This document shows, in pieces, positions 2 through 38,566 of a stretch of 39,177 bases of DNA. This stretch comes from Candidatus Portnoybacteria bacterium RIFCSPHIGHO2_02_FULL_39_12 (GTDB lineage Bacteria > Patescibacteriota > Minisyncoccia > Portnoybacterales > UBA2143). Each line of letters begins with the position of its first letter. Within the stretch, counting starts at the first letter, position 1. The notes beneath the pieces are model-generated. The model made no database searches, had not been told where the DNA came from, and saw only the letters and a list, made by a program, of their open reading frames with translations. The position numbers and the translations under genes were made by a program. The DNA lies in the NCBI GenBank assembly GCA_001819555.1, contig MHMZ01000032.1:20834-60010 (forward strand), in the 5' to 3' direction.

Positions 2-1741
2 CGTTTGAGTATTATTGATTTAGAAGGCGGTCACCAGCCGATGACCAATGAAGACAAAACAATTTGGGTTGTTTTTAACGGCGAGATTTATAATTTTCAA
101 GAATTAAAGGAAAAATTAGAAAAACAAGGACATCAATTCAAAACCAAAAGCGATACGGAAGCAATAGTTCATTTATATGAAGAAAAAGAAGAAGAATTTT
201 TAGAAGAATTGAACGGGATGTTTGCTATTGCTCTCTGGGATGAGAAAAAGGAAAAGTTGATTTTAGCCCGCGACCGGCTCGGTGAAAAACCGCTTTATTA
301 TGTTGTTTTTAATCAAAATCTGGTTTTTGGCTCTGAACTTAAAGCTCTTTTGGCTCACCCTTTAGTTAAAAAAGAGCTGGATTTAGGAAGTTTGGCTAAA
401 TACTTAATTTATGAATACGCGCCGGCGCCTCACAGTATTTTAAAAGATATTTATAAGCTCTGTCCAGGCGAGTATTTAGTTTATAAAAATAATCAAGCGT
501 CAGTTAAAAAATACTGGGAAATTAGTTTTGACAAAAATCCGGAGAATCTGACAAAAGACGAGTATTTGGGCGAGCTTGAAAAAAGATTAGAGGGAGCGGT
601 AAAAAAAAGATTAGTGGCCGATGTTCCTTTAGGCATTTTTTTAAGCGGCGGCCTGGACTCAACTTCTCTTGCTTATTTTGCCCAAAAAAATTCATCAAAA
701 AGAATTAAAACTTTCTCTATCGGCTTTGTTGACCGGTCATTTGATGAATCAGAATATGCCAGACAAGCGGCTCGATTTTTAAAAACCGAACATTATGAGA
801 AAATTTTAGAGCCCAAAGATTGTCTGAATCTTATCCCCCAAATTGCCGATTTTTTAGATGAGCCGCTGGCTGACGCTTCTCTTGTGCCCACTTATCTTCT
901 TTCTCAATTTACCAGAGAAAAAGTAACGGTGGCTTTAGGCGGGGACGGCGGCGATGAACTTTTTATGGGCTACCCCACTTTTCAGGCCTATCGTTTGGAT
1001 AGAATTTATCAAAAAATTCCGTCCTGGCTAAGAAATTATTTTATTCAGCCGCTCATTAAAAATCTGCCTCCTTCTTTCAATAATATCAGTTTTGATTTCA
1101 GATTAAAGAGATTTATCGCCGGTTCTTCGTTTAGGCCGGAAATAAAAAATCAGATTTGGTTAGGTTCTTTTGAGCCGGCCCAACTAAGGGATTTGCTGGC
1201 TCCTTCAATTTATCAGCAAATTAAATTAAACAAGATTTTTGAAGATATTGAAAATTATCTTGAGGGGGTTAAAAGCAAGTCAATAGAGAACCGGCTTATT
1301 TATTTATATTTAAAAAATTATTTACAGGACGATATTTTAGTCAAAACTGACCGGGCCAGTATGGCCGTGGGTTTAGAAGTTCGGGCGCCGTTTTTAGATT
1401 ATACTTTGGTTGATTTTATTAATTCTCTGCCGACTGAATATAAATTAAGAGGTTTTAAGACTAAATATTTATTCAAAGAATTAATGAAAAATAAATTGCC
1501 TCAAAACATTGTTTATCGGCCTAAAAAAGGATTCGGCTTGCCAATAGCCAAATGGCTTAAAAATGATTTAAAGGTCTTTGTTTTAGATTCTTTTTCTGAA
1601 TCAAAAATCAAAAGAGAAGGAATTTTTAATTTTAATTATATTAAAAATCTTCTCCAAGAGCATTTTAGCGGCCAGAAAGATAATAGAAAAGTTTTATGGA
1701 CTCTTTTAATTTTTGAAATTTGGCTGGAGAAATGGCGTTAA
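2..1741 (+). CDS. asnB: Asparagine synthase (glutamine-hydrolysing), AsnB-type amidotransferase; 5' end truncated by the window edge
   Basis: The track ORF begins at an internal TTG (nt 5), but the frame is open to the window edge (codon phase from nt 2). The first residues, R-L-S-I-I-D-L-x-G-G-H-Q-P, are a conserved motif from inside the AsnB glutaminase domain, so the true N-terminus lies upstream. A PP-loop SGGLDS is present (FLSGGLDSTS). Length and C-terminal synthetase domain are typical. Confidence 0.9.
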   Translation, partial: RLSIIDLEGGHQPMTNEDKTIWVVFNGEIYNFQELKEKLEKQGHQFKTKSDTEAIVHLYEEKEEEFLEELNGMFAIALWDEKKEKLILARDRLGEKPLYYVVFNQNLVFGSELKALLAHPLVKKELDLGSLAKYLIYEYAPAPHSILKDIYKLCPGEYLVYKNNQASVKKYWEISFDKNPENLTKDEYLGELEKRLEGAVKKRLVADVPLGIFLSGGLDSTSLAYFAQKNSSKRIKTFSIGFVDRSFDESEYARQAARFLKTEHYEKILEPKDCLNLIPQIADFLDEPLADASLVPTYLLSQFTREKVTVALGGDGGDELFMGYPTFQAYRLDRIYQKIPSWLRNYFIQPLIKNLPPSFNNISFDFRLKRFIAGSSFRPEIKNQIWLGSFEPAQLRDLLAPSIYQQIKLNKIFEDIENYLEGVKSKSIENRLIYLYLKNYLQDDILVKTDRASMAVGLEVRAPFLDYTLVDFINSLPTEYKLRGFKTKYLFKELMKNKLPQNIVYRPKKGFGLPIAKWLKNDLKVFVLDSFSESKIKREGIFNFNYIKNLLQEHFSGQKDNRKVLWTLLIFEIWLEKWR

Positions 1742-1845
1742 CCCGCCAAAATTTCAAAGAAATTTAGGAGGGTAAACCCGCCAAAATTTCAAAGAAATTT
1801 AGGAGGGTAAACCCGCCAAAATTTCAAAGAAATTTAGGAGGGTAA
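1741..1845 (+). repeat. Three perfect tandem copies of a 35-bp unit ACCCGCCAAAATTTCAAAGAAATTTAGGAGGGTAA
   Basis: Read directly: units at 1741-1775, 1776-1810 and 1811-1845. The first unit begins at the last base of the asnB stop codon. The last unit ends 1 nt before the ATG at 1847. Each unit carries an AGGAGGG Shine-Dalgarno, a TAA and a small AT hairpin (AAATTTC-AAA-GAAATTT). Confidence 0.95.
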
Positions 1846-1846
1846 A

Positions 1847-3262
1847 ATGAAAATTTTATTATTACAACCTTTGATACCGGCTGAAATAATGTGGGGCAGA
1901 TTTAATAAGGGAGAGGGTTTTGTGCCGCCGATTGGCTTGGTCAGCGTGGCCGGTTATCTGCATTCAAAAGGTTATGATATTGCGGTTTGCGACACACAGT
2001 TAGATAGATTTAGCGAGAAAAATTTAGGTGATTATTTGACGGCTGGTCAGTATGATTTAATTGGCATTCCGGCTTTTACCAATTCTTTAACTTATTCCTT
2101 TAAAACAGCCGAGATTTGTAAAAGCGTTCTGCCCGGAGCCGCCGTTGTTTTCGGCGGAGTTCATGCGACTATTATGCCCGAAGAGGTTTTAAATGATTGT
2201 CCTTTTGTTGATTTAGTAGTGGTTGGGGAAGGAGAATATATTATGGAAGATATTATTAGTCATCTTTTGTCCGGTTATCCCCCGCTTAAAGACATTAAGG
2301 GTTTGGCCTATAGAAAAGCCGGTCAAATTATGGTCAATGAAAGACGCCAGCCGATAAATGATTTAGATAAATTACCCTTTCCGTCTTATCATTTGTTGGA
2401 TATGTCTCGTTATCGGCCGCATCCGACTCAATATAAACTCCTGCCCAATTTTCCGGTGCTTGTCCAGAGGGGCTGTCCTTTTAATTGCGCTTTTTGCAGC
2501 GCCCACTTGGTTCACGGCCGGCGGATTCGCTCTAAGTCGGTTAAAAGAACGATAGAGGAATTAAAATTATTAAAAAATAAATATGGGGCTCGGGGCATAT
2601 ATTTTCAAGACAGCACTTTTACCATTAATAAACATTTTATAAAAGAATTATGCGAAAAAATGATAAAAGAGAAATTAAACTTAGCTTGGGCCTGCAATAC
2701 CAGAGTTGACTGCGTTGATGGGGAATTATTAAAACTGATGAAAAAAGCCGGCTGCTGGCTGATTGCTTATGGGATTGAGTCCGGCAATCAGAAGTCCTTG
2801 GAACTTTTGGATAAAAGGATAAATTTAGCCCAAATAGAGAAAGCGATTAGATTAACTCATCAATACGGCATTAATTCTTTGAGCAGCTATATTTTAGGCC
2901 TGCCCGGCGAGACTTTTAAGGATAGTTTAAACACTATTCAATTCGCCAAAAAATTAGCCAGCCAGATCGGATTATTTTTTCTGCCAATTCCTTATCCGGG
3001 CACTGATTTAGAAAAAATTTGTCAGGCAGACGGCGGAATGAGAGAAAATGTCAAATGGGCTGATTATTCGGCTTTTGATTTTTCCAATCCAATTTATGTT
3101 AATCCCAAGATAGGCAAAGAGGGCATGAAAAAACTTTTGAGCTTGGCTTATAGAAAATATTACACTTCGCCCCGCGTGATTTTCAATAATCTTTTAAGCA
3201 TCAATTCTTTAAGCGACCTTAAAAGATATTTTTTGGCCGGCCGGGCTTTGATAGGAATCTAA
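1847..3262 (+). CDS. Cobalamin-binding-domain (class B) radical SAM enzyme, paralog 1
   Basis: CxxxCxxC cluster motif in [10 protein letters not shown]. The N-terminal Rossmann-like region has the GGxHxT motif ([13 protein letters not shown]) typical of the B12-binding domain of class B radical SAM proteins. 471 aa. Strong SD (AGGAGGG) upstream. Confidence 0.85.
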
Positions 3263-3266
3263 AAGT

Positions 3267-3283
3267 TTAGGGTCCGACCCTAA
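3267..3283. repeat. Solo half-copy of the GGGTCCGACCC palindrome family (TTAGGGT-CCG-ACCCTAA)
   Basis: A single arm that is itself self-complementary. It lies 4 nt after the stop at 3262 and 13 nt before the ATG at 3297. Confidence 0.8.
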
Positions 3284-3296
3284 CGAACTAAAGAAA

Positions 3297-4067
3297 ATGA
3301 GTTCAGAAAAACGTTTTGGTTACGAGTGGCATAAATACCAAGAGATAGACCCTAATTACGAGATTCAATTTCTTAAATGGATTTATCCGCTTAAGCCAAA
3401 AGATTTTAAAGGCAAAAAAATTTTAGACGCCGGTTGCGGCATGGGCCGCAATAGTTATTGGGCTTTAAAATACGGCGCTAAAGATTTAACCGCTTTTGAT
3501 TATGATAAACGGAGCGTTAAGGCCGCCGTAAAAAATTTAGCTTCTTTTAAAAATGCCCGAGTTGAATTCAAAAGCATTTATGAGATAGATTACAAAAATC
3601 AGTTTGATATTGTGTTTTGTCTCGGGGTGATTCATCATCTGGCCAATCCCCATTTGGCGATAAAAAATCTGATTCAATCAATTAAGCCCGGCGGCCTGAT
3701 TTTAATTTGGGTTTACGGCTATCAGGGTAATGTTTGGATAGTTAAATTTGTTAATCCCATTAGAAAAAATATCACTTCTAAACTGCCTTTGCCGCTGGTT
3801 CATTTTTTTAGTTATTTTCTTTCTTTGCCCTTATGGTTTTGGGTTAAAATTTTTAAAGGGCCGGGGCTATATCTTAGGCAGTTATCCGGCTTTAAGTTTT
3901 GGCATATCAGAAGCATTGTTTTTGACCAGCTGATTCCTGAAATTGCCAATTATTTTACCAAAGAAGAGGCCAAAAAATTATTAGCCGACTTTAATGAACT
4001 TAAAGAGATAGAGATTTACCCTGTCAATAACAACAGCTGGACTGTTTTAGGTCAAAAATATGATTGA
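3297..4067 (+). CDS. Class I SAM-dependent methyltransferase
   Basis: Motif I ILDAGCGMGRN. Post-motif LIQSIKPGGLILIWVYG. C-terminal hydrophobic segment. Confidence 0.85.
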   Translation: MSSEKRFGYEWHKYQEIDPNYEIQFLKWIYPLKPKDFKGKKILDAGCGMGRNSYWALKYGAKDLTAFDYDKRSVKAAVKNLASFKNARVEFKSIYEIDYKNQFDIVFCLGVIHHLANPHLAIKNLIQSIKPGGLILIWVYGYQGNVWIVKFVNPIRKNITSKLPLPLVHFFSYFLSLPLWFWVKIFKGPGLYLRQLSGFKFWHIRSIVFDQLIPEIANYFTKEEAKKLLADFNELKEIEIYPVNNNSWTVLGQKYD

Positions 4068-4962
4068 TAAAAAGAAAAAAATATTAAAAAATTTAGTTTG
4101 TCCCAACTGCTTTAAAGAATTAAACTTATTTTCTGATAAGTTGATTTGCGGCCATTGCCCAAAGGAATACCCCTTAATAGATAAAAGACCCTTTCTCTTA
4201 GATGAGTCGGGCCGGGGCTTTAAGGAATCAAGCAACGATATTTTAATCAATAAATTGAAAATTTTTTTTAAGAAATATCCTTTGATTTTTAATTTATTCT
4301 TTTATGTTTTCGGCGCTTCTTTAGTTGGGAAAAGTCCCAAAAAAGCGATTGAAGGAATCGGTTCTCATAAGCTCATTCTCAATTTAGGTTCCGGTATCAG
4401 AAAAATCAGAGAAGATGTGATTAATATTGATTTTTATCCGTTTAATAATGTTGATTTAATAGCTGATATTTCTCATTTGCCTTTTAAAGACAATTCAATT
4501 GAAGCCGTAATTAATGAATTTGTTTTAGAGCATATTAAAGAGCCGGAGAAAGTTATCGCTGAAATTTATCGAGTTTTAAGGCCCGGCGGTTTGATTTATT
4601 TGACCGCGCCCTTTTTAGTCAGTTTTCATTCTTCGCCTGATGATTATTGCCGCTGGTCAAAAAACGGCTTAAAAGAATTAATGAAAGAGTTTCAGGCAGA
4701 TGAAATCGGCATCAGGTCCGGGCCCACAGCTAGCCTTCTTTCAATTTTAAACGGCTGGCTGGCGCTTGTTTTGAGTTTTGGCTCTAAAACAATACAGCAG
4801 GTTTTATTGATGTTTTTGACAATTTTAACCAGCCCTTTTAAGGTTTTGGATTATTTTTTATCTAAACTGCCCAACGCGGAAAATATCGCCTTGGGTTTTT
4901 ATTATCTTGGCAGAAAGAAAGTTGAAGTGACACGGGGGCAGCCCCCAAGGCAGCAGGCCTGA
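4060..4962 (+). CDS. SAM-dependent methyltransferase (Methyltransf_11-like) with N-terminal Trm112-like Cys4 zinc ribbon and hydrophobic C-terminus
   Basis: CPNC...CGHC ribbon at the N-terminus. Motif I LILNLGSGIRK. LRPGGLIYLTAP. The start overlaps the upstream stop by 8 nt (ATGATTGA). The last ~11 codons and the stop codon lie inside the GC-rich hairpin at 4929-4981. Confidence 0.75.
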   Translation: MIDKKKKILKNLVCPNCFKELNLFSDKLICGHCPKEYPLIDKRPFLLDESGRGFKESSNDILINKLKIFFKKYPLIFNLFFYVFGASLVGKSPKKAIEGIGSHKLILNLGSGIRKIREDVINIDFYPFNNVDLIADISHLPFKDNSIEAVINEFVLEHIKEPEKVIAEIYRVLRPGGLIYLTAPFLVSFHSSPDDYCRWSKNGLKELMKEFQADEIGIRSGPTASLLSILNGWLALVLSFGSKTIQQVLLMFLTILTSPFKVLDYFLSKLPNAENIALGFYYLGRKKVEVTRGQPPRQQA

Positions 4963-4981
4963 TGGGGGCTGCCCCCGTGTC
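4929..4981. repeat. GC-rich perfect inverted repeat, 19-bp arms (GACACGGGGGCAGCCCCCA / TGGGGGCTGCCCCCGTGTC), 15-nt loop
   Basis: Read directly. Each arm contains its own palindrome, GGGGGC-A-GCCCCC. The TGA stop of the 4060 gene (4960-4962) lies in the loop. The next ATG is at 4993. Confidence 0.9.
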
Positions 4982-4992
4982 CATAAAGTAAA

Positions 4993-6783
4993 ATGAAAAT
5001 TATTATTCAACATAAATGGGCTGTTATTTTGGCTGTTTTGGTTGGTTTAATAATTGCTTTCCCTCATCTTTATTTTCGTTTTGAATACAGAGACATTTAT
5101 CAAGGGATTGGTTTTAGCGGGGCTGATGAAGAGGCCTATTTAACCCGGCTTCAGGAAATAAGAGACGGTCACTACGCCACGGCCAACTATGTTTGGCTGG
5201 AAGGCAAAGATTTACCCTATTTACTGCCGCCTCTTTCAGAGATTATAACCAGTTTTTTAGGCAGGATTTTCGGCCTTAATTTGATTGACACGGCTGTCTT
5301 GGCCAGATTTGTTTTCCCGGCTTTTGTTTTTTTGCTTATTTACGCTTTGGTTTATCAGCTAACCCGTCAGAAAAAGATTGCCTTAGCCGCCTCTTTGACC
5401 GTTTTATTGTCAACTAATTTAGTTGAGCCAAGAGCCCTTTGGGATTTATTAATTGAGCAAAAAACCGATAATGATTTTTTGCCCTTTAGCCGGTTAATCG
5501 CCCCGCCGGTCCATTCGCTTTTTCTTTTTGGTTTTTTGCTTCTTTTTTGGTTTTTTCTTCAGAATAAAAAATGGGTTTACCCCGCGCCTTTCAAAGGCTT
5601 GATGTCTCCGGTGGTAAAAAAAATAAAGGTCTTTGAAAGGCGCGGGGTTTACGGCATTTTTAGCGGTCTTGTTTTGGGCCTGTCTTTTTATACTTATCCC
5701 TACACCTGGACATTTATTTTCGCTTTTTTAGGCGCGCTCTTGGTGATTTTTGTCTGTCAGAAACGATGGTCTCAAATAAGAAGCATATTTTTAATCTCAA
5801 GCATCGCTTTATTAGCGGCCCTGCCTTATTTTTGGAATTTATGGCAGGCCATCAAACAGCCGCTTTATTCGGAAGTGGCGCTTCGCCACGGCTTAGTCAA
5901 AACGCATCAGCCCCAAATCGGCCTTTTGGTCTTGGCTCTTTTGATTATTTTTTTGTTATTATTTTCCAAAGAGCGGAAGGAGAGATATTCGTATTGTTTG
6001 GCGCTTGTTTTAGCTCCTTTAATTGTTTTAAACCAGCAGCTCGTCACCGGCCGGCTTCTGATTCCAGACCATTATCATTGGTATTATCATCGGCCCTTGG
6101 CTATTATTATTTTTATTATTATTATTTTTGAAAAACTTGAAAAAATCATCAATCAGCCGCGGCTGAAAAGATACGGTCTTTGGGGATTGACCGGCCTTAT
6201 TTTATTTGTTAATTTTTACAACGCTTGGCTGGTTCAAAGTTTCTCTTATAAATTCAGAGTTTCTAATGCCGTAGAAAGCCAGCGTTACGGGCCGGTTTTA
6301 AAATGGCTCAATGACCACGCCAAAAAAGACGAGGTGGTCATGGGAGATGAAACAATTTCTTATCTAACGCCTATTTATACAACCCTTAACGCGGTGAGCG
6401 CCCAAGACGGCCACTACGCGCTGATAGCCAGCGAAGAACAAATTACAGAAAGAGCTTTTTTATTGTTTCGCCTTAACGGCTTAAAAGCGGAAGAAGCGAA
6501 TAAATTCTTTTTTGAAAACAGGAGCAGAATTTCCGGCGGCATTTACGGCCAATATTATCGCAAACAATTAGGCGAATATGGTTTAATTCCGGATGCCAAG
6601 CTCTATTTTTTAGTTGATCGGTATAAAGAATTTTTATCCGCGCCCTTAGAGGAAATGTTAAGGAAATATCATACTGATTATTTAATTTGGGACACTCTGA
6701 AACATCCCGAATGGCAGATTGAAGAGTATTCATTTCTTAAACAAATCTATCAGGCCGAAGGCTTGAAAATATACAAAATATGA
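4993..6783 (+). CDS. Large polytopic membrane protein with C-terminal soluble domain; possible GT-C-type glycosyltransferase (function uncertain)
   Basis: 596 aa with many hydrophobic helices in the first ~420 aa, followed by a hydrophilic C-terminal domain. Neighbours are GT-C/YfhO-type genes. I could read no diagnostic motif. Confidence 0.45.
   Translation: MKIIIQHKWAVILAVLVGLIIAFPHLYFRFEYRDIYQGIGFSGADEEAYLTRLQEIRDGHYATANYVWLEGKDLPYLLPPLSEIITSFLGRIFGLNLIDTAVLARFVFPAFVFLLIYALVYQLTRQKKIALAASLTVLLSTNLVEPRALWDLLIEQKTDNDFLPFSRLIAPPVHSLFLFGFLLLFWFFLQNKKWVYPAPFKGLMSPVVKKIKVFERRGVYGIFSGLVLGLSFYTYPYTWTFIFAFLGALLVIFVCQKRWSQIRSIFLISSIALLAALPYFWNLWQAIKQPLYSEVALRHGLVKTHQPQIGLLVLALLIIFLLLFSKERKERYSYCLALVLAPLIVLNQQLVTGRLLIPDHYHWYYHRPLAIIIFIIIIFEKLEKIINQPRLKRYGLWGLTGLILFVNFYNAWLVQSFSYKFRVSNAVESQRYGPVLKWLNDHAKKDEVVMGDETISYLTPIYTTLNAVSAQDGHYALIASEEQITERAFLLFRLNGLKAEEANKFFFENRSRISGGIYGQYYRKQLGEYGLIPDAKLYFLVDRYKEFLSAPLEEMLRKYHTDYLIWDTLKHPEWQIEEYSFLKQIYQAEGLKIYKI
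5580..5647. repeat. GC-rich palindromic element inserted in-frame inside the 4993..6783 CDS
   Basis: 17-bp perfect arms: CCCCGCGCCTTTCAAAG (5580-5596) and CTTTGAAAGGCGCGGGG (5631-5647). Flanked by the 8-nt direct repeat GGGTTTAC (5573-5580 and 5645-5652), exactly 72 bp apart (24 codons). Confidence 0.85.
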
Positions 6784-8128: not shown

Positions 8129-10561
8129 ATGAACCAAAAGAATAAATTCAACGCTTTTATTAGAGAGGTGGCTAATTTTTCCTTTATCGGTATTATTTTA
8201 TTGGTTCTTTTTTGGCCAATTTTATTCGGCCATAAAGTATTTTTCGGCGGAGACGCTGCTCTTCAATTTTACCCTTTTTTTTCATTTTTTAAAGACAATC
8301 TTAATGGTTTTACTTTCTGGCTTTCTGATATTTTATCCGGCTTTCCTGTCTATCTAAGTTTAGTCGGCGGCTTTTTCTATTTTTTAAATATATTTTTTTA
8401 TAGCTTCTTGGATTTTATTTCTGCTTATCATTGGGTTACTTTCATAAATTTCTTTCTTGGCGGTTGCTTCGCTTATTTTCTGGCCAGAAATCTTCAATTA
8501 GACAAAACCGCTTCTTTGATTGCTTCAATTACTTATACTTTAAGCGGTTTTTTGCTTAATTATCAGACTGCGGCGACCACAACTAATCTTTATTTTATCC
8601 TGCCGTTTTTATTTTTATCTCTTTTAAAAATCAGTCAAAGAAATTATAAATATATTCTCTTAGGCGGAATTGCTTTAGGTTTGGGCTGGCTTTCTTCACA
8701 TCTTCAACTTTTTCTCTTTATTGTTTCAGCCGGCATTTTTTACGCTTTTTTTCTGGATTGGCAAAACTATAACAGAGAAAAATCGTTTTTAAGAAATTTT
8801 TCCGTTTTGAAATCATTGGCGGTTATCGGAATTTTGAGTCTTTTGATCGGTTCCTTTCAAATATGGCCCTCCAATAAATTTAGCGGTTTAAGCGGCCGGG
8901 CTTTGGGCTTGAGCTATCAAGAAGCGTCCGCTGGCGCCCTGGGTCCGGTTTCTTTAATTAGTTATCTATTTCCTTATTTTGAAATACCGTATTTTAATTG
9001 GGGCACTCCAGGCATATTTTATCTCGGTTTTTTGCCTTTTTTCTTTTTTTTGGCTGCCTGGTTTTATCGCCGGGAAAACAAAAATATTTTCTTTTTTGTT
9101 CTTTTATTTATTTTTAGTTTTCTAAGCGCTATTCCTTTTTCGCCTTTTTTCTATTTGATGCATTTTTTGCCCGCCTTTAAATATTTTAGAGCGCCTTTTC
9201 GCTGGATGTTTATCGGAACTTTTGCTTCGGCTCTTTTAGCCGGTTACGGTTATCAGTATTTTCTGAATAATTCCCAAAAAATAAAAAAAATAATCAGCGT
9301 TTTTAAATACCTTATCTATCTGATTGTTCTTTTTGCCGTCACAGGCAATCTTTTGTTTTATTTGGCCGGAGATAAAATAATTGATTTTTTGAAAAGTTAT
9401 TTTGAAAAAAATCTCTATCAGAAAACCACTCAATTGCCGTTAGTCCATTATGAGAGTTTGATAGAAAAATATGTTTTGGAAATGTTTAATAATATTGATT
9501 TGAAGAATTATAAGTTTCTGATTCCTTTCGGTTTTATCCTTTTTGGGTTTTATTTAATCGGGATTTATTATCAAAAAAGAATTAGCTTGGACAAGTTCAA
9601 GTTCTTTGTCGTTTTGACTATCATCACCAATCTTTTATTGGTTTATAAACTAAAAGACCAATATATTCCGCGTCAGTTATATTTAAGAACATCAGAGACG
9701 GCCGAATTTATCAAAAGCCGCGAAAACAACTTTAATAGTTTTAGAATGTTCAGTTTTATGCCGGGATTTTCTGAATACGAGCGATTAGCCGTTCCTCATA
9801 CTCCCACTTTAGAAGATTTATTTATTTTTCAGTCAGAAATGGCCGCGCCTAATTTGAATATACTTTACGGACTTTCCAGTATTGATGGTTATGATAATTT
9901 AATGCCGCGCCGTCAGGCCAGAGTTTTAGCGGAATTAGGCAGCGACCGGGCTACCTTAGGCAATAAATTAACCGATAAAAAAAATAGCTTAGAAGAAAAA
10001 ATAAAAGAGTTTTTATTAAGAATTAATCTTTTAAGCGCGCAGAATGTTAAATATATTATCAGTGCTTATCAATTGCCGACTGATAAATTGAATTTGGTTT
10101 GGGAGAAAGGAATTACCCGTTTTAAGATTCCAATTTATATTTATGAAAATCCGCAGGTTTTGCCCCGGATTTATTTCGCCAAAGAGATTCAATTTATCGG
10201 GCTTGACGAAATTAAAAATTTTGATTTACTGCTTAATCCCGAGCTGGACTTTCGTAAAACAACTCTTATTGAATGTTTGAAATGTTATGTTCAGCGGAAA
10301 GAAGAAAATAATTTTTCAAAAATTAATATAGAGGAATATAGAAATGGCCTGCTAAGATTAAAAACCGAAACCAGCCAGCCAGAGTGGCTGATTTTCGGCG
10401 AGAGTAATTTACCGGGCTGGCAAGCCAAGATAGACGGAGAAATAACCGATATCTATATGGCTGATTATCTTTTTCAGGCCATTGCGGCGCCGGCTGGAGA
10501 GCATTTTATAGAATTTAGATATCGGGGCGCCACTAAAATTGAACATTTTCTTTTTAGATAA
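8129..10561 (+). CDS. YfhO-family membrane protein (extracytoplasmic glycosyltransferase family)
   Basis: 810 aa with a polytopic N-terminal two-thirds. The C-terminal beta-rich end, LPGWQAKIDGEITDIYMADYLFQAIAAPAGEHFIEFRY, is characteristic of YfhO proteins. GGAG SD upstream. Confidence 0.7.
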   Translation: MNQKNKFNAFIREVANFSFIGIILLVLFWPILFGHKVFFGGDAALQFYPFFSFFKDNLNGFTFWLSDILSGFPVYLSLVGGFFYFLNIFFYSFLDFISAYHWVTFINFFLGGCFAYFLARNLQLDKTASLIASITYTLSGFLLNYQTAATTTNLYFILPFLFLSLLKISQRNYKYILLGGIALGLGWLSSHLQLFLFIVSAGIFYAFFLDWQNYNREKSFLRNFSVLKSLAVIGILSLLIGSFQIWPSNKFSGLSGRALGLSYQEASAGALGPVSLISYLFPYFEIPYFNWGTPGIFYLGFLPFFFFLAAWFYRRENKNIFFFVLLFIFSFLSAIPFSPFFYLMHFLPAFKYFRAPFRWMFIGTFASALLAGYGYQYFLNNSQKIKKIISVFKYLIYLIVLFAVTGNLLFYLAGDKIIDFLKSYFEKNLYQKTTQLPLVHYESLIEKYVLEMFNNIDLKNYKFLIPFGFILFGFYLIGIYYQKRISLDKFKFFVVLTIITNLLLVYKLKDQYIPRQLYLRTSETAEFIKSRENNFNSFRMFSFMPGFSEYERLAVPHTPTLEDLFIFQSEMAAPNLNILYGLSSIDGYDNLMPRRQARVLAELGSDRATLGNKLTDKKNSLEEKIKEFLLRINLLSAQNVKYIISAYQLPTDKLNLVWEKGITRFKIPIYIYENPQVLPRIYFAKEIQFIGLDEIKNFDLLLNPELDFRKTTLIECLKCYVQRKEENNFSKINIEEYRNGLLRLKTETSQPEWLIFGESNLPGWQAKIDGEITDIYMADYLFQAIAAPAGEHFIEFRYRGATKIEHFLFR

Positions 10562-12999: not shown

Positions 13000-13028
13000 G
13001 GGTCCGACCCTCATGATGGTCGGACCCT
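12999..13028. repeat. GGGTCCGACCC palindrome family copy (11-bp stem, 8-nt loop)
   Basis: AGGGTCCGACC-CTCATGAT-GGTCGGACCCT, starting at the last base of the TAA stop of the 12046 gene. Confidence 0.9.
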
Positions 13029-17118: not shown

Positions 17119-17678
17119 CTCGCGAACAAATTATCATTAAATATATCAAGGGCAAAGATGTTTTGGATATTGGCAGTGTCGGTCAGACCGATAAATATAA
17201 TCTGTGGGTTTTTTTGAAAAAGGAGGCCGGGCAATTGGTCGGCTTAGACACAGAGCCGTCTGATAATCCAGATATTATTCAGGGCAATATGGAAACTTAT
17301 AACTTTCATAAGCAATTTGATGTTATTTTAGCCGGCGATGTCTTAGAGCATATTGACAATCAGGGCCTTTTTTTAGACAACATTAGAAAACATCTTAAAA
17401 AAGACGGGTATTTTATTTTAACCACGCCTAATGCCAAGTGGTTCAATGTTTTGCTTAGGCCCAATCCGACTCATACTCTTTGGCATGATAAATATACGCT
17501 TTTTCATATTTTAAATAAATATGGATTTAAAGTAATCTTTTTTAGATATTATTATGGCAATAAGCCCCATTATAATTTTTTTAAAAAACTCCTTGTCTTA
17601 AGACAAGGAGTGATTTTAGTCGCCCAAGCTAAAGGGTCCGACTCTCGCGAGGGTCGGACCCTCATGGGTTTTCAATGA
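17115..17678 (+). CDS. Small class I SAM-dependent methyltransferase
   Basis: VLDIGSVGQ motif I, GDVLEHI and LKKDGYFILTTPN. The last ~30 codons are encoded by two palindromic elements. Confidence 0.7.
   Translation: MTREQIIIKYIKGKDVLDIGSVGQTDKYNLWVFLKKEAGQLVGLDTEPSDNPDIIQGNMETYNFHKQFDVILAGDVLEHIDNQGLFLDNIRKHLKKDGYFILTTPNAKWFNVLLRPNPTHTLWHDKYTLFHILNKYGFKVIFFRYYYGNKPHYNFFKKLLVLRQGVILVAQAKGSDSREGRTLMGFQ
17588..17611. repeat. 24-bp perfect palindrome ACTCCTTGTCTTAAGACAAGGAGT inside the 3' end of a CDS
   Basis: Read directly. It contains AAGGAG in the right arm and is followed by GATTTTAG. It lies 21 nt upstream of the family palindrome at 17633. Confidence 0.85.
17633..17662. repeat. GGGTCCGACCC palindrome family copy (one arm mismatch)
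   Basis: AGGGTCCGACTCTCGCGAGGGTCGGACCCT. It lies inside the 3' end of the 17115 CDS and 12 nt before the ATG at 17675. Confidence 0.9.
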
Positions 17679-27333: not shown

Positions 27334-28115
27334 ATAAAACAATTATCACAACCAGCTGGGATGACGGGAGCAGGGAAGATTTAAGGGTGAGCCGGCTTTT
27401 AAATACTTTTAATCTTAAGGGCACTTTTTATGTCCTTCAAGCGCGCGAATTCCGGTCTTTAACCGATGAAGAGATTAAGGAATTAAGTAAAACCCAGGAA
27501 ATTGGGGCCCACACCCTAAATCATTACGACTTGACTAAGTTGAGCTTAGTTCGGGCCAAAAAGCAGATAATCGGTTCAAAAAAAAATTTAGAGGATATTT
27601 TACATAAACCAATAAAAATGTTTTGCTATCCGAAGGGGAAATATAATTCAGAAATTAAAGAAATAGTTCAGGAGGCAAATTTTTTAGGGGCCAGAACGAC
27701 AAAGGAATTTTCTTTTAGAGAGCCAAAAGATTTTTTTGAATTTGGCGCGGCTCTTCATGTTTATCCTTTTCCCTTGAGAAAAAGAGATAGAGAGCATTAT
27801 CATTTATCCCGATTTTTATTTCAGCCGTTAGGAAGAAAATTTTTTAAAATTTTAAAATTAGGCCTGCCATTTTCTTCTTTTTTAAACTGGCCGAATTTAG
27901 CCAAAGCTCTTTTTGATTATGTTTATAAAAACGGCGGAATTTACCATTTGTGGGGCCATTCTTGGGAAGTAGAGCGTTACGGCATGTGGCTGGAATTAGA
28001 AGATTTATTTAGATATATAAGCCGGAGAGAGAATGTTTTGTATTTGACTAATGGCCAGGCCTTAGAATTCTTTAGGGTCCGACCCTCGCTAGGGTCGGAC
28101 CCTCACAATCTATGA
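27330..28115 (+). CDS. Polysaccharide deacetylase (NodB-homology, CE4-like; ArnD-like role possible)
   Basis: Motif 1 TTSWDDGS (TFDDG-like). Motif 2 GAHTLNH (HxxxH). ATGA overlaps at both ends. The C-terminal 10 residues are encoded by the palindrome at 28074-28103. Confidence 0.75.
   Translation: MNKTIITTSWDDGSREDLRVSRLLNTFNLKGTFYVLQAREFRSLTDEEIKELSKTQEIGAHTLNHYDLTKLSLVRAKKQIIGSKKNLEDILHKPIKMFCYPKGKYNSEIKEIVQEANFLGARTTKEFSFREPKDFFEFGAALHVYPFPLRKRDREHYHLSRFLFQPLGRKFFKILKLGLPFSSFLNWPNLAKALFDYVYKNGGIYHLWGHSWEVERYGMWLELEDLFRYISRRENVLYLTNGQALEFFRVRPSLGSDPHNL
28074..28103. repeat. GGGTCCGACCC palindrome family copy
   Basis: AGGGTCCGACCCT-CGCT-AGGGTCGGACCCT. It lies inside the 3' end of the deacetylase CDS and 8 nt before the ATG at 28112. 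Confidence 0.9.
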
Positions 28116-29431
28116 GGATTTTGTTTTTACAAGACGATTTTCCGCCGGAAAGTTTAGGCGGCGCCGGGACGGTTGCTTTTAATTTGGCCCAAGAATTTAG
28201 AAAGAAAGGCCATCAGGTTTATGTTATTTGCGCGGTTAAAGATAAAGATAAGGCCGGCCAGCGGATTGAAGAAGGGTTAGCGGTTTTTCGGCTTTACGCT
28301 AATTATCACGAGCGCTGGCGCGCTTATTTAGGGCTTTACAATCCCCAAATAATCAATCAGATAAAAAAATTATTCAGCCAAATCCGGCCGGATATCGCTC
28401 ATTTTCACAACGTTCATTATTATTTATCCTATGCTTCCTTAAAAATAGCTAAAAAATACAGCCGGGCGGTTTTTCTGACGGCTCATGACGTAATGTCTTT
28501 TCATTACGGTAAATTGATAGAATTCATCAATCCAAATAATTTATCAATTCCTAAAACTTTTAATTATAGAATCACTCCTTTAAAACAAATCAAAAGATTT
28601 AAAAAAAGATACAATCCTTTGAGAAATATTATTATCAGGCATTATTTAAAAAAGGCCAATAAGATTTTCCCGGTTAGTTCCGCTTTAAAAGAGGCCCTAA
28701 AACAGAATGGGATAGAGAACACAGAAGTAATTTATAATGGCATAAACGCGGACGAATGGCAGATTGATGATAAATTGATAGATGATTTCAAAAAGAAATA
28801 CCGGCTTTTTAATAAAAAAGTGATTTTTATGATTGGCCGGTTAAGCGATTTAAAAGGCGGGGAGAAAATTATCAGGGCGATGGAAATAGTCAATCAAAAA
28901 ATACCAGAGGCGGTTTTAATGGCCGCGGGCGATAAACAAGGTTATGCTCAAAAGATGTTAAGCTTGGCTGAAAATAAAAATATCCAATTGCTTCTGACCG
29001 GATATTTACGAAGAGATGAATTAAAAGCGGCAACCCGGAGCAGTGATTTAGCGGTTGTTCCTTCTATTTGTTTTGATTCTTTTCCGACATCTAATTTGGA
29101 AGCCATGGCTTGTCAGAAGCCGGTTATCGGCACTTGTTTCGGGGGAACGCCGGAAATTGTTCTGGATAATATAACCGGCTATATTGTTAATCCTTTTAAT
29201 ATAGAAAAAATGGCGGAAAAAATCATAGCGCTTTTAAGCGATTCCCAAAAAGCCGAACAATTCGGACAAGCCGGCTATGAACGGGTCAAGAGATATTTTT
29301 CTCTTCAAGAACAAGCGGAAAAGATTCTTAAATATTATGAACAATTCCTAAGAGGTTCTTTAGGGTCAGACCCTCGCGAGGGTCTGACCCTAAAGAACCC
29401 TCAAGAAAAATATGCGCGTCCTCTTAATTAA
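28112..29431 (+). CDS. GT4-family (Glycos_transf_1) glycosyltransferase
   Basis: FPTSNLEAMACQKPVIGTCFGGTPEIVLDNITGYIV. N-terminus MRILFLQDDFPPESLGGAG. The C-terminal ~25 residues are encoded by the palindrome at 29354-29399 and its flank. Confidence 0.9.
   Translation: MRILFLQDDFPPESLGGAGTVAFNLAQEFRKKGHQVYVICAVKDKDKAGQRIEEGLAVFRLYANYHERWRAYLGLYNPQIINQIKKLFSQIRPDIAHFHNVHYYLSYASLKIAKKYSRAVFLTAHDVMSFHYGKLIEFINPNNLSIPKTFNYRITPLKQIKRFKKRYNPLRNIIIRHYLKKANKIFPVSSALKEALKQNGIENTEVIYNGINADEWQIDDKLIDDFKKKYRLFNKKVIFMIGRLSDLKGGEKIIRAMEIVNQKIPEAVLMAAGDKQGYAQKMLSLAENKNIQLLLTGYLRRDELKAATRSSDLAVVPSICFDSFPTSNLEAMACQKPVIGTCFGGTPEIVLDNITGYIVNPFNIEKMAEKIIALLSDSQKAEQFGQAGYERVKRYFSLQEQAEKILKYYEQFLRGSLGSDPREGLTLKNPQEKYARPLN
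29354..29399. repeat. GGGTCCGACCC palindrome family copy: 46-bp perfect palindrome with a compensated arm substitution
   Basis: GGTTCTTTAGGGTCAGACCCTCG|CGAGGGTCTGACCCTAAAGAACC. Arms read GGGTCAGACCC / GGGTCTGACCC instead of GGGTCCGACCC / GGGTCGGACCC. Confidence 0.95.
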
Positions 29432-30854
29432 TCCGCCCAGATTTAACGAAGTTTTGGCCGATAACCCGTCTTTTATTGACGAAGAACGGGGGTTTAATCC
29501 GCCCTTGGGCTTGCTTTACATAGCCGGTTATTTAAAAAAATATAGCGGGCATCGGGTTTTTTGTTTAGACGCTCAAGTAGAAGGTCTAAATTACAATAAA
29601 GGGTTTAAAAAAAGAATAGAAGCGATAAGCCCGGATGTCGTTGGCATGACCGTGATGACTTTTACTTTGATTGACGCTTTAAAAACGATTGAATTAATCA
29701 GAGAAGCGGAAGAAGGGCTTAATAAAAAAATTATTATTGTTTTAGGGGGGCCTCATGTTCATTTATTCCCCAAAGAGACAATTCAATTAAAGGGTGTTGA
29801 TTTTATAACCAAAGGAGAAGGCGAGCGGCCTTTTTTTAATTTACTGGAAGCCCTTGAAGGACGCGGTCAATTAGCCGATGTTAAGGGCTTGGCTTATCGG
29901 GAAAAAGACGTAATTATTGATAATCCGGTCGGCGATTTTATTGAAAATTTGGACGAATTGCCTTTTCCGGACAGAAATTTATTGCCAATTGAAAAATATA
30001 ATTCAATTTTGGGCCACGGCCGAATTGTGACAACGATGTTTACTTCGCGGGGCTGTCCTTTTAAATGCGCCTTTTGCGACCGGCCTCATTTGGGCAAAAG
30101 ATTTAGAGCCAGAAGCGCCAAAAATGTGGTTGATGAAATGGAAGAATGTCTTAAATTAGGCATTGAAGAGATTTTAATTTATGACGATACTTTTACCGTT
30201 AACCGGCAAAGAACAATTGATATTTGCGACGAAATTCTTAAAAGGGGATTAAAGTTTATTTGGGATATCCGGGCCCGGGTTGACACGGTTGATGAAGAGG
30301 TCTTAAAAAAACTAAAGCGGGCCGGCTGTCAAAGGATTCATTTTGGAGTTGAGGCCGGCACAGAGAAAATTTTAAAGGTCTTAAATAAAGGGATTCATTT
30401 AAATCAGATAGAAAACGCTTTTAGGTCAGCTAAAAAAGCTGGCCTTGAGACATTGGCTTATTTTATGATTGGGGCGCCGACCGAGACCAAAGAAGATATT
30501 TTAGAGACGATTAAATTTGCCAAAAAAATAAAACCGGCTTATGCTCATATCACTATTTTAACCCCTTATCCGGCCACCGCTATCTATTATCAGGCCTTAG
30601 CCCAAGGGGTAATTCAGAGTGATTATTGGCGCGCCTTTGCCAGCCAGCCGGAAAAAGGCGTGGTGACCCGATATTGGGAAAAAGAATTAACCAGAGAGGA
30701 ATTATTTTATTTTTTGAATAAATTTTATAAGGAGTTTTACGGCCGGCCGGCTTATCTTATCCGGCAGATATTAAAAGTTCGTTCTTTTGACGATTTGAAA
30801 AGAAAAGTAAGAGCTGGTTTAAAGGTATTAAACATCAGGGTCCGACCCTCATGA
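29412..30854 (+). CDS. Cobalamin-binding-domain (class B) radical SAM enzyme, paralog 3
   Basis: SRGCPFKCAFC and VLGGPHVHLFPKE. 480 aa. The stop codon lies in the centre of the palindrome at 30837-30866. Confidence 0.85.
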   Translation: MRVLLINPPRFNEVLADNPSFIDEERGFNPPLGLLYIAGYLKKYSGHRVFCLDAQVEGLNYNKGFKKRIEAISPDVVGMTVMTFTLIDALKTIELIREAEEGLNKKIIIVLGGPHVHLFPKETIQLKGVDFITKGEGERPFFNLLEALEGRGQLADVKGLAYREKDVIIDNPVGDFIENLDELPFPDRNLLPIEKYNSILGHGRIVTTMFTSRGCPFKCAFCDRPHLGKRFRARSAKNVVDEMEECLKLGIEEILIYDDTFTVNRQRTIDICDEILKRGLKFIWDIRARVDTVDEEVLKKLKRAGCQRIHFGVEAGTEKILKVLNKGIHLNQIENAFRSAKKAGLETLAYFMIGAPTETKEDILETIKFAKKIKPAYAHITILTPYPATAIYYQALAQGVIQSDYWRAFASQPEKGVVTRYWEKELTREELFYFLNKFYKEFYGRPAYLIRQILKVRSFDDLKRKVRAGLKVLNIRVRPS

Positions 30855-30866
30855 GGGTCGGACCCT
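30837..30866. repeat. GGGTCCGACCC palindrome family copy, 30-bp perfect palindrome
   Basis: AGGGTCCGACCCTCA|TGAGGGTCGGACCCT. The central TGA (30852-30854) is the stop of the 29412 gene. It ends 15 nt before the ATG at 30882. Confidence 0.95.
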
Positions 30867-38532: not shown

Positions 38533-38566
38533 ATTAGGGTCCGACCCTTAAGGGTCGGACCCTAAT
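38533..38566. repeat. GGGTCCGACCC palindrome family copy, 34-bp perfect palindrome
   Basis: ATTAGGGTCCGACCCTT|AAGGGTCGGACCCTAAT. It starts immediately after the TAA at 38530-38532 and ends 11 nt before the ATG at 38578. Confidence 0.95.

What the first reader, a model, noticed from the sequence alone, without database searches (positions are those of the whole stretch)
5573..5652. 72-bp GC-rich palindromic element inserted in-frame in a membrane-protein gene, with flanking direct repeats (MITE/RPE-like)
Inside CDS 4993..6783 there is a perfect 17-bp inverted repeat, CCCCGCGCCTTTCAAAG (5580-5596) and CTTTGAAAGGCGCGGGG (5631-5647). It is flanked by the direct repeat GGGTTTAC at 5573-5580 and 5645-5652.

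The repeat period is exactly 72 bp, or 24 codons. The reading frame is therefore preserved and the protein gains the basic, hydrophilic segment PAPFKGLMSPVVKKIKVFERRGVY. Precise excision would join ...QNKKWVY directly to GIFSGLVLGL..., a short loop between two hydrophobic helices.

The direct repeat (TTTA/TTTAC core) looks like a target-site duplication. GC content is strongly anomalous for this AT-rich gene. The arm sequence is unrelated to the GGGTCCGACCC family.
Basis: seen in the sequence. Interest (0 to 1): 0.7.

Follow-up and report, generated by a model that had tools for sequence, protein, structure and literature searches.

The report
Tiny palindromic mobile element inside a gene
A 68-bp hairpin-forming mobile DNA element has landed in-frame in a membrane glycosyltransferase gene of a tiny groundwater bacterium (Candidatus Portnoybacteria), and a sister copy sits in the intron-like insertion in the same genome's 16S rRNA gene; this is a small new family of a known kind of selfish DNA, in a bacterial group where none had been described.

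Summary

- **The repeat is real.** There is a perfect inverted repeat of 18 bp (5579-5596 / 5631-5648). It forms a 22-bp RNA stem of -47 kcal/mol (z = -8). GGGTTTAC flanks it on both sides, 72 bp apart.
- **The insert is derived.** All 36 homologues of the 596-aa host protein lack exactly these 24 residues. A relative's DNA reads ATGGGTTTACGGCATT, which is the window sequence after precise removal of the 72 bp.
- **The host tolerates it.** The host is a GT-C-fold glycosyltransferase. The insert is the main low-confidence stretch of the AlphaFold model and is a basic, probably cytoplasmic, loop.
- **A second copy exists.** A chimeric scaffold led to it, in the same MAG (locus-tag prefix A3I88). 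It lies at the 5' edge of the LAGLIDADG-carrying insertion in the 16S rRNA gene.
  - Its arms are the same, with a one-base deletion in each arm that preserves pairing.
  - Its loop is unrelated.
  - It has the same TTTAC flanks.
  - Three related 16S insertions lack it exactly.

Two independent insertions at TTTAC|G, each with empty sites in relatives, indicate a miniature mobile element. It measures 68 or 72 bp, has 16-20-bp terminal inverted repeats, and probably duplicates TTTA.

The genome-wide copy number and the mobilising enzyme remain unknown. I class it as a new member of a known kind.

The parts
4993..6783 (+). Host gene. It encodes a 596-aa polytopic membrane protein with a GT-C glycosyltransferase fold and no Pfam match. 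It sits in a surface-glycan gene cluster.
   Evidence: ORF. No Pfam hit; the neighbouring genes match PMT_2 and YfhO. The AF2 model has pLDDT 90.9. Foldseek matches PglB, AftA and ArnT at E = 4.5e-7 to 2.7e-4.
5580..5647 (.). The inserted element under the symmetric reading: 68 bp, CCCC...GGGG.
   Evidence: It is absent from 36 homologues and from the empty site in L149. It is identical in 8 contigs.
5580..5596 (+). Left terminal inverted repeat, CCCCGCGCCTTTCAAAG. Perfect pairing starts at A5579.
   Evidence: The first 15 nt are shared with copy 2 in L158.
5597..5630 (+). 34-nt A-rich loop. It is unrelated to the loop of copy 2.
5631..5647 (+). Right terminal inverted repeat, CTTTGAAAGGCGCGGGG. 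Perfect pairing ends at T5648.
   Evidence: The 21-mer TTGAAAGGCGCGGGGTTTACG (5633-5653) is identical in L158 9896-9916.
5576..5579 (.). Left copy of the probable target-site duplication, TTTA. It lies within the observed direct repeat GGGTTTAC (5573-5580).
   Evidence: D7. The empty site in L149 has a single TTTAC. The same TTTAC flanks copy 2.
5648..5651 (.). Right copy of the probable target-site duplication, TTTA. It lies within the observed direct repeat GGGTTTAC (5645-5652).
5581..5652 (+). The 24 extra codons, PAPFKGLMSPVVKKIKVFERRGVY. The equivalent 24-residue register VYPAPF...ERRG (residues 195-218) has K+R = 6 and D+E = 1.
   Evidence: The AF2 low-confidence stretch covers residues 191-215.

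Best explanation
The element is a copy of a miniature, non-autonomous mobile DNA element of the MITE or 'small mobile repeat' kind. It is 68 bp long with perfect 17-18-bp terminal inverted repeats (CCCCGCGCCTTTCAAAG).

**The insertion event.** The element inserted at the target 5'-TTTAC|G-3' in the codons W-V-Y of a GT-C glycosyltransferase gene. It most likely duplicated TTTA, so 68 + 4 = 72 bp were added. The addition is a multiple of three and falls in one of the element's two stop-free frames. The gene therefore stays open. The protein gains a 24-residue, net +5, probably disordered loop between two transmembrane helices, on the side that is probably cytoplasmic. There it is tolerated.

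**The second member.** A second family member inserted at another TTTAC|G site, inside the intron-like insertion of the same genome's 16S rRNA gene that carries a LAGLIDADG gene. It has the same arms, a different loop, and adds 76 bp.

**Shown.** The insertion is derived at both loci. The arms and flanks are shared. Both copies are in the same MAG. The reading frame is preserved.

**Inferred.** A transposase supplied in trans recognises the arms. The exact element/duplication boundary is TTTA, though TT or TTTAC also fit. The loop is cytoplasmic. The insertion is neutral or nearly so.
For: - **Derived state at locus 1.** There is a 24-aa gap in 36 of 36 homologues. The empty site ATGGGTTTACGGCATT is present in L149.
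- **Second copy.** L158 9835-9915 reads TTTAC-CCCGCGCCTTTCAAG...CTTGAAAGGCGCGGGG-TTTAC, with a 20-bp perfect stem and a 34-nt loop. It shares an exact 21-mer and a 19-mer with the window copy.
- **Derived state at locus 2.** Three related 16S insertions align on both sides and lack exactly the hairpin. Their LAGLIDADG genes are 61-67% identical to P0050. Their empty sites read ...TTAAC|GATGACCC and ...CTTAC|GATTGACCC.
- **Same genome.** Genes next to the window and the LAGLIDADG gene carry the same locus-tag prefix, A3I88, of one Ca. Portnoybacteria MAG. The two loci also co-occur in the same samples.
- **No ORF of its own; tolerated position.** This is shown by the frames, the AF2 low-confidence loop at 191-215 and the charge count.
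- **Precedent.** In-frame insertions of small palindromic elements are known: RPEs, ERIC and QMITE (PMC10969869, PMC5896051). Elements of 80-110 bp with inverted termini and no known transposon relative are also known: the SMRs of Haloquadratum (PMC3119063).
Against: - Only two copies were found. There is no further copy in about 66 kb of this genome.
- No protein in 5.8 billion carries the element's peptides in any frame.
- No paired arms were found in the genome, metagenome or viral scans. Those genome and metagenome scans used copy-1-specific arms, and the source genome appears to be absent from both collections.
- No transposase or full-length element with these termini was found.
- The loops of the two copies are unrelated. 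That is unusual for copies of one MITE.
- There is no presence/absence polymorphism. All sampled strains carry both copies with identical sequence. Current activity is therefore not shown.
Confidence: 0.75

Rival explanations
1. This is a single-hairpin element moved as folded single-stranded DNA by an HUH/Y1 enzyme (IS200/IS605 TnpA or a RAYT-like enzyme). It integrates 3' of the tetranucleotide TTAC, as IS608 does, with no true target duplication. On this view the right-hand TTTAC belongs to the element.
For: - Both copies lie immediately 3' of TTAC and end in TTAC, followed by G.
- Only the hairpin arms are conserved and the loops are free.
- The arms stay perfectly complementary through a one-base deletion in each arm. 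This fits recognition of a folded hairpin.
- The TTAC target of IS608 is from my own knowledge.
Against: - IS200/IS605 ends and PATEs have two separate subterminal hairpins and no terminal inverted repeats (PMC3119063). Here the two ends pair with each other, and the foot of the stem abuts the cleavage site.
- No TnpA or RAYT gene was seen in the accessible loci.
- The symmetric TTTA-duplication reading explains the same bases.
Confidence: 0.13
2. The hairpin is kept, or was recruited, for a function in RNA. Candidates are an RNase III cleavage site, a structure that slows ribosomes or destabilises the mRNA of the glycosyltransferase gene, or a processing signal in the 16S insertion. This is compatible with a mobile origin.
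For: - The stem is 22 bp and essentially perfect, at -47 kcal/mol.
- The arms are perfect in both copies despite an indel difference.
- An RNase III gene is present in the genome (L158).
Against: - No Rfam family matches; only generic long-hairpin models score, far below threshold.
- It is not terminator-like.
- Relatives manage without it at both loci.
- There is no sequence variation that could show covariation within a locus.
Confidence: 0.08
3. The origin is not mobile. On this view the insert is a one-off filler or fold-back repair product or a template-switch mutation, or it is an assembly artefact.
For: - This arm sequence occurs only once in the window.
- The microhomology at the junction could in principle come from repair.
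Against: - A second locus has the same 16-nt arms and the same flanks, and it is also an insertion relative to its relatives.
- The sequence is identical in independent assemblies from several sources.
- Both arms are new relative to the empty site, so this is not a template switch on pre-existing sequence.
Confidence: 0.02

Closest known systems
Rickettsia palindromic elements (RPEs; Ogata et al. 2000, as summarised in PMC10969869)
   Same: Both are palindromic selfish DNA inserted in-frame in protein-coding genes. Both add a peptide segment that the protein tolerates, and the host gene stays intact.
   Different: - RPEs are about 100-150 bp, belong to Rickettsia-specific sequence families, and occur in tens to hundreds of copies.
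- This element is 68-72 bp and only 2 copies are known.
- It comes from a different phylum and only its arms are conserved.
- The second copy is not in a protein-coding gene, and its added length (76 bp) is not a multiple of three.
Prokaryotic MITEs, e.g. Correia elements, Coxiella QMITE1/2, Nezha (PMC10969869, PMC5896051)
   Same: It is small, has no transposase and has terminal inverted repeats. It has short flanking direct repeats, an empty site in relatives, and can overlap or extend ORFs.
   Different: - It is much shorter than typical MITEs.
- No parent IS with the same termini is known.
- The internal sequence is not conserved between copies.
- The flanking repeat is the same sequence at both loci, which points to target specificity.
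Small mobile repeats (SMR-A/B) of Haloquadratum walsbyi (PMC3119063)
   Same: Both are 80-110-bp elements with prominent inverted termini that are unrelated to any known transposon, and both are mobilised by an unknown mechanism. Both tend to land inside other mobile elements; here copy 2 sits inside a homing-endonuclease-carrying rRNA insertion.
   Different: SMR-A elements are described as causing no target duplication. They are archaeal and there is no sequence relationship.
IS200/IS605-derived PATEs and IS608-type target choice
   Same: Both copies lie immediately 3' of TTAC, and the element is dominated by a hairpin.
   Different: PATEs lack terminal inverted repeats and have two separate subterminal palindromes. 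Here one hairpin spans the whole element.
Translational-bypass inserts (T4 gene 60; mitochondrial 'byps' of Magnusiomyces)
   Same: It is a GC-rich hairpin insert in an AT-rich coding sequence, flanked by identical codons (GUU UAC ... GUU UAC).
   Different: Those inserts interrupt the frame or carry a stop codon just after the take-off codon. This one is in-frame and stop-free, so no bypass is needed.

Membership tests
MITE (miniature inverted-repeat transposable element) | Small, and too short to encode a transposase | tested here: met
   The elements are 68 and 72 bp and carry no ORF of their own.
MITE (miniature inverted-repeat transposable element) | Terminal inverted repeats | tested here: met
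   The arms are perfect for 18 bp (window) and 20 bp (L158).
MITE (miniature inverted-repeat transposable element) | Flanking direct repeat (target-site duplication), with a single copy at the empty site | tested here: met
   TTTA(C) lies on both sides of both copies. The empty sites in L149, L167 and L169 carry a single TTTAC, TTAAC or CTTAC. The exact length of the duplication (2-5 bp) is ambiguous.
MITE (miniature inverted-repeat transposable element) | Several dispersed copies in the genome | tested here: inconclusive
   Two copies lie at unlinked loci of one MAG. There are no more in about 66 kb.
MITE (miniature inverted-repeat transposable element) | A cognate autonomous IS with the same termini | tested here: inconclusive
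   No locus with two arms kilobases apart appeared among 140 exact-arm hits. The scans were exact-match only and did not include the source genome.
Rickettsia palindromic elements (RPE) | In-frame insertion in a protein-coding gene, adding a tolerated peptide | tested here: met
Rickettsia palindromic elements (RPE) | Sequence membership in one of the RPE families, with a conserved RPE-encoded peptide present in many proteins | tested here: not met
   No other protein among 5.8 billion shares the element's peptides in any frame. The organism is a Patescibacterium. The DNA was not compared directly with RPE consensus sequences.
REP/BIME (RAYT-associated) | A short (20-40 nt) extragenic palindrome with a conserved 5' GTAG, no target duplication, and an associated RAYT gene | tested here: not met
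   The element is intragenic, has a 34-nt loop, has a flanking repeat and has no GTAG. The presence of a RAYT gene is not testable here.
IS200/IS605-derived PATE | No terminal inverted repeats; two separate subterminal palindromes; no duplication | tested here: not met
   The two ends are complementary to each other and form a single hairpin. Defining features are as given in PMC3119063.
IS200/IS605-derived PATE | Insertion 3' of a fixed tetra- or pentanucleotide | tested here: met
   Both copies follow TTAC. With n = 2 this cannot be told apart from a sequence-specific target duplication.
Intrinsic (Rho-independent) terminator | A GC-rich stem with a short loop, followed by a T-run | tested here: not met
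   The terminator scan did not call it. The loop is 34 nt and the tail is TTTACGG.
Known structured RNA families (Rfam 15), including group I/II introns | A score at or above the family's gathering threshold | tested here: not met
   Only generic miRNA-precursor hairpin models matched, at 28 bits against thresholds of 93 or more.
Programmed translational-bypass insert (gene 60 / byp type) | The insert breaks the frame or has a stop just after the take-off codon; take-off and landing codons match | tested here: not met
   Matching GUU-UAC codons are present, but the insert is 72 nt, in-frame and stop-free. Actual bypass is not testable here.

The most novel reading that the evidence does not exclude
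The family may not be a classical inverted-repeat/target-duplication MITE. It may instead be a minimal single-hairpin element that moves as folded single-stranded DNA and integrates 3' of 5'-TTAC (IS608/HUH-type target choice). The apparent direct repeat would then be the element's own 3' TTTAC.

Only the shape and foot of the hairpin would be recognised. That would explain the perfect arms, the one-base deletion matched in both arms, and the unrelated loops.

Once transcribed, the same 22-bp stem is flanked by identical GUU-UAC codons. It could also act as an RNase III site or allow occasional ribosome hopping, which would yield both the 596-aa and the ancestral 572-aa form.
Probability: 0.12. 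Interest if true: 0.75.

Novelty: new member of a known kind. Interest (0 to 1): 0.5.

Why it matters
- **A new host group.** Patescibacteria (CPR) have very small, streamlined genomes. Their known mobile DNA is mostly the rRNA-gene insertions that carry homing endonucleases. I found no report of MITE-like elements in them. The survey of CPR rRNA insertions does not use the words palindrome, hairpin or inverted repeat (PMC11270868).
- **A clean example of protein remodelling.** A 68-bp selfish element remodels a protein (+24 aa in a GT-C glycosyltransferase) without breaking it. The empty sites pin down the event to the base.
- **A practical warning.** The shared 21-mer between the two copies produced a chimeric scaffold in a public metagenome assembly (L157).
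- **Rare precedent.** If the family proves to be larger, it would be a rare case outside Rickettsia of palindromic elements surviving in-frame in genes. It would also give a handle on what mobilises such minimal elements.

Tried and rejected
1. **Exact-match scans for other copies.**
   - The two-arm pattern CGCCTTTCAAAG-N20-50-CTTTGAAAGGCG found 0 hits in genome contigs.
   - The 17-mer arm found 64 hits in genomes, 72 in metagenomes and 4 in viral contigs.
   - All of these were single-arm hits, mostly in GC-rich genomes, with no partner arm and no extension. Their number matches chance expectation.
   - The scans were designed before copy 2 was known. They require CAAAG, so they would miss copy-2-type arms.
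   - The source genome itself was not returned, so it is evidently not in those collections.
   - Patterns that fit both copy types could be run only on viral contigs, where they found 0 hits.
2. **One recurrent low-GC hit.** L024, L042 and L100 represent one locus. It matches 19 nt of the arm next to a short repeat array, has no partner arm, and I judged it to be chance.
3. **Composite six-frame peptide query.** Only 8 candidates shared words with the query, and none scored E <= 10.
4. **BLASTN of the element.** Searches against phages and plasmids found nothing relevant.
5. **Covariance model of the two copies.** Run over 174 kb of held CPR DNA, it recovered only the two copies and one other hit. 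That hit, in L169, is the natural V3 helix of its 16S rRNA.
6. **Within-population variation.** I looked for an empty-site allele or for covariation and found none. All strains are identical.
7. **Alternative identities.** Intrinsic terminator and known RNA family or intron were both rejected.
8. **The truncated 229-aa 'protein' P0044.** It first looked like a rearrangement at the element's edge. It is an assembly chimera joined through the 21-mer shared by the two copies. That chimera is what revealed copy 2.
Full report
**1.
- The two 17-nt arms are exact reverse complements at 5580-5596 and 5631-5647.
- Perfect pairing is 18 bp (5579-5596 / 5631-5648).
- As RNA the stem reaches 22 pairs and folds at -47.3 kcal/mol. 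Shuffles average -23.1 +/- 3.0, giving z = -8.0. As DNA, z = -7.1.
- GGGTTTAC occurs at 5573-5580 and 5645-5652, exactly 72 bp apart.
- CDS 4993-6783 reads through the element.
- The sequence between the flanking TTTACs is 51% GC, against about 36% for the window.
- Eight independently assembled contigs from NCBI, JGI and ENA carry the identical sequence. It is therefore not an assembly artefact.

**2. The 72 bp are an insertion.**
- The protein has 42 homologues, all from Patescibacteria-type sources.
- In an alignment of 36 of them (33-64% identity), every one has a gap of exactly 24 residues between ...KW and VYG....
- At the DNA level, a 63%-identical relative (L149) reads AAATGGGTTTACGGCATT. 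The window reads AAATGGGTTTAC[72 bp]GGCATT.
- The 90%-identity cluster contains only 596-aa full-length members, so no empty allele was seen in the population.

**3. The host gene tolerates the insert.**
- The host protein has no Pfam match.
- An AlphaFold model is confident, with mean pLDDT 90.9. It matches GT-C glycosyltransferases (PglB, AftA, ArnT; E = 4.5e-7 to 2.7e-4).
- The gene lies in a cluster of glycosyl-, methyl- and radical-SAM enzymes.
- The main low-confidence stretch is residues 191-215, and the only run of pLDDT below 50 is residues 194-204. This is the insert, which lies between helices 172-190 and 208-234.
- The insert has 6 K+R and 1 D+E and extends an already basic loop, QNKKW.
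- From the positive-inside rule and the N-in topology of GT-C enzymes, I infer that the loop is cytoplasmic.
- Only two of the element's six frames are stop-free. The gene uses one of them.

**4. The search for other copies was at first negative.** Exact-arm scans of the genome, metagenome and viral collections gave only single-arm hits in numbers expected by chance. A six-frame peptide query found no other protein. About 66 kb of the same genome held no further copy.

**5. A chimeric scaffold gave the lead.**
- A 229-aa cluster member, P0044, ends right after the insert.
- Its scaffold, L157, matches the window at 4982-5653 and then matches another locus. The two matches overlap by the 21-mer TTGAAAGGCGCGGGGTTTACG.
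- The scaffold is a chimera made through a repeat. The other locus therefore holds a second copy.

**6. The second copy.**
- In L158 and eight other 16S-locus contigs fetched via P0050 (L159-L166, which include NCBI LBVM01000048), positions 9835-9915 read TTTAC-CCCGCGCCTTTCAAG-[loop]-CTTGAAAGGCGCGGGG-TTTAC.
- It lies 7 nt inside the 962-bp insertion that interrupts the 16S rRNA gene. Exon 1 ends ...GCACGGTT and exon 2 resumes at 10795.
- It is 85 nt upstream of a LAGLIDADG_3 homing-endonuclease ORF. Such rRNA insertions are common in CPR bacteria (PMC11270868, PMC11809585).
- Three related 16S insertions align on both sides and lack exactly the hairpin (76-77 nt). Their endonucleases are 61-67% identical to P0050. 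Their empty sites read ...TTAAC|GATGACCC and ...CTTAC|GATTGACCC.
- Genes next to the window (A3I88_02610, A3I88_02630) and the endonuclease gene (A3I88_03180) share one locus-tag prefix of a Candidatus Portnoybacteria MAG. Both copies are therefore in one genome.

**7. Anatomy of the family.**
- The shared parts are TTTAC, a 15-16-nt arm core, and TTTAC followed by G.
- Copy 2 has one base fewer in each arm (CAAG/CTTG against CAAAG/CTTTG), so pairing stays perfect. Its pairing also extends inward to 20 bp.
- Both loops are 34 nt long between the perfect stems and are unrelated in sequence.
- The added lengths are 72 and 76 bp. The family is therefore not constrained to multiples of three. The in-frame state in the gene reflects which insertions can survive there.
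- The boundary can be placed anywhere within the repeat. The symmetric reading gives an element CCCC...GGGG with a 4-bp duplication, TTTA. The readings TT (with 18-bp arms) or TTTAC are equally compatible.

**8. Mechanism.**
- The best-supported explanation is a non-autonomous element with terminal inverted repeats, mobilised in trans, with a preference for TTTAC|G. Two independent insertions, each with an empty site in relatives, are the core evidence.
- The main rival is hairpin-directed single-strand transposition 3' of TTAC, in the manner of IS608. It fits the flanks and the structure-preserving indel. It does not fit the architecture of known IS200/IS605 ends or PATEs (PMC3119063).
- A secondary RNA role for the 22-bp stem cannot be tested here. 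No Rfam family, terminator or intron model fits.

**9. Comparison with known systems.**
- In behaviour the closest match is the Rickettsia palindromic elements, which insert in-frame and are tolerated (PMC10969869).
- In anatomy the closest matches are very small MITEs and the 80-110-bp 'small mobile repeats' of Haloquadratum, which also land in other mobile elements (PMC3119063).
- The element is not a member of any named family. Four of the five defining MITE features were examined. Three are met and copy number is inconclusive. A cognate transposase is unknown.
- I found no description of such elements in CPR bacteria.
- The verdict is a real, validated finding of moderate interest, and a new member of a known kind.

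**10. Limits.**
- Only two copies are known.
- The rest of the genome could not be read with the tools available.
- There is no polymorphism or expression data.

Noticed in passing
window 4929-4981 (also L145 20439-20477): A second family of GC-rich perfect palindromes has the core GGGGGCAGCCCCC. The window copy has 19-bp arms and a 15-nt loop, and it straddles the stop codon of the upstream methyltransferase gene (4060-4962). It encodes that gene's last 13 residues (VEVTRGQPPRQQA). The 61%-identical relative in L149 ends at ...GRKK and has only an 11-nt spacer with no hairpin. This looks like another palindromic insertion that alters the end of a coding sequence.
   Followed up: partly
window 3270-3280, 13000-13027, 17634-17661, 28075-28102, 29363-29390, 30838-30865, 38537-38562: The GGGTC(C/G)GACCC family. 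It gave 24 strand-hits at up to 1 mismatch, at seven sites: six are inverted pairs about 15-17 bp apart and one (3270-3280) is a single palindromic unit. The expected number is 0.14. The units sit at or just past the 3' ends of genes and several overlap the last codons. None was found in the 16S locus or in the relatives' loci.
   Followed up: partly
window 1741-1847: A 35-bp tandem repeat (aacccgccaaaatttcaaagaaatttaggagggta) lies directly upstream of the radical-SAM gene's start codon and includes its ribosome-binding site. The repeat's 10-mer GGGTAAACCC occurs 1, 2 or 3 times in assemblies of the same population (L002/L004: 1; window/L001/L003/L005: 2; L008: 3).
   Followed up: partly
L157 (ENA ERZ28563808 scaffold_11633), positions 1130-1801: This is a chimeric public scaffold, reported from 2 samples. 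It joins window 4982-5653 to the 16S-insertion locus through the 21-mer shared by the two element copies. Its left junction falls exactly at the end of the 4929-4981 palindrome and leads into unrelated HEPN/TM2 genes. That left junction remains unexplained.
   Followed up: partly
L158 863-904, 3059-3102, 4123-4166: A third palindrome family in the same genome has three copies of TTTAGGAGCCTCGCTCCTAAA / TTTAGGAGCGAGGCTCCTAAA. The arms are 20-21 bp perfect with a 2-nt loop. The copies at 3059-3102 and 4123-4166 lie between small pilin-like (N_methyl) genes; the copy at 863-904 falls inside a protease/PDZ gene call (748-1587).
   Followed up: no
window 5658-5667 and L158 9924-9933: Downstream of both insertion sites there is a near-identical 10-mer: TTTTAGCGGT at +6 and TTTTAGCAGT at +9. 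In the window it is conserved coding sequence. In L158 it is one strand of a helix in the 16S insertion that covaries among relatives. This is probably coincidence, but it could reflect wider target recognition.
   Followed up: no
window 4993-6783 and homologues P0002-P0043: The host protein family (about 570-590 aa, no Pfam domain) appears to be restricted to Patescibacteria. It is predicted with high confidence to have a GT-C glycosyltransferase fold plus a C-terminal soluble domain. One homologue, P0002, has a different 11-aa insertion in the same loop.
   Followed up: partly
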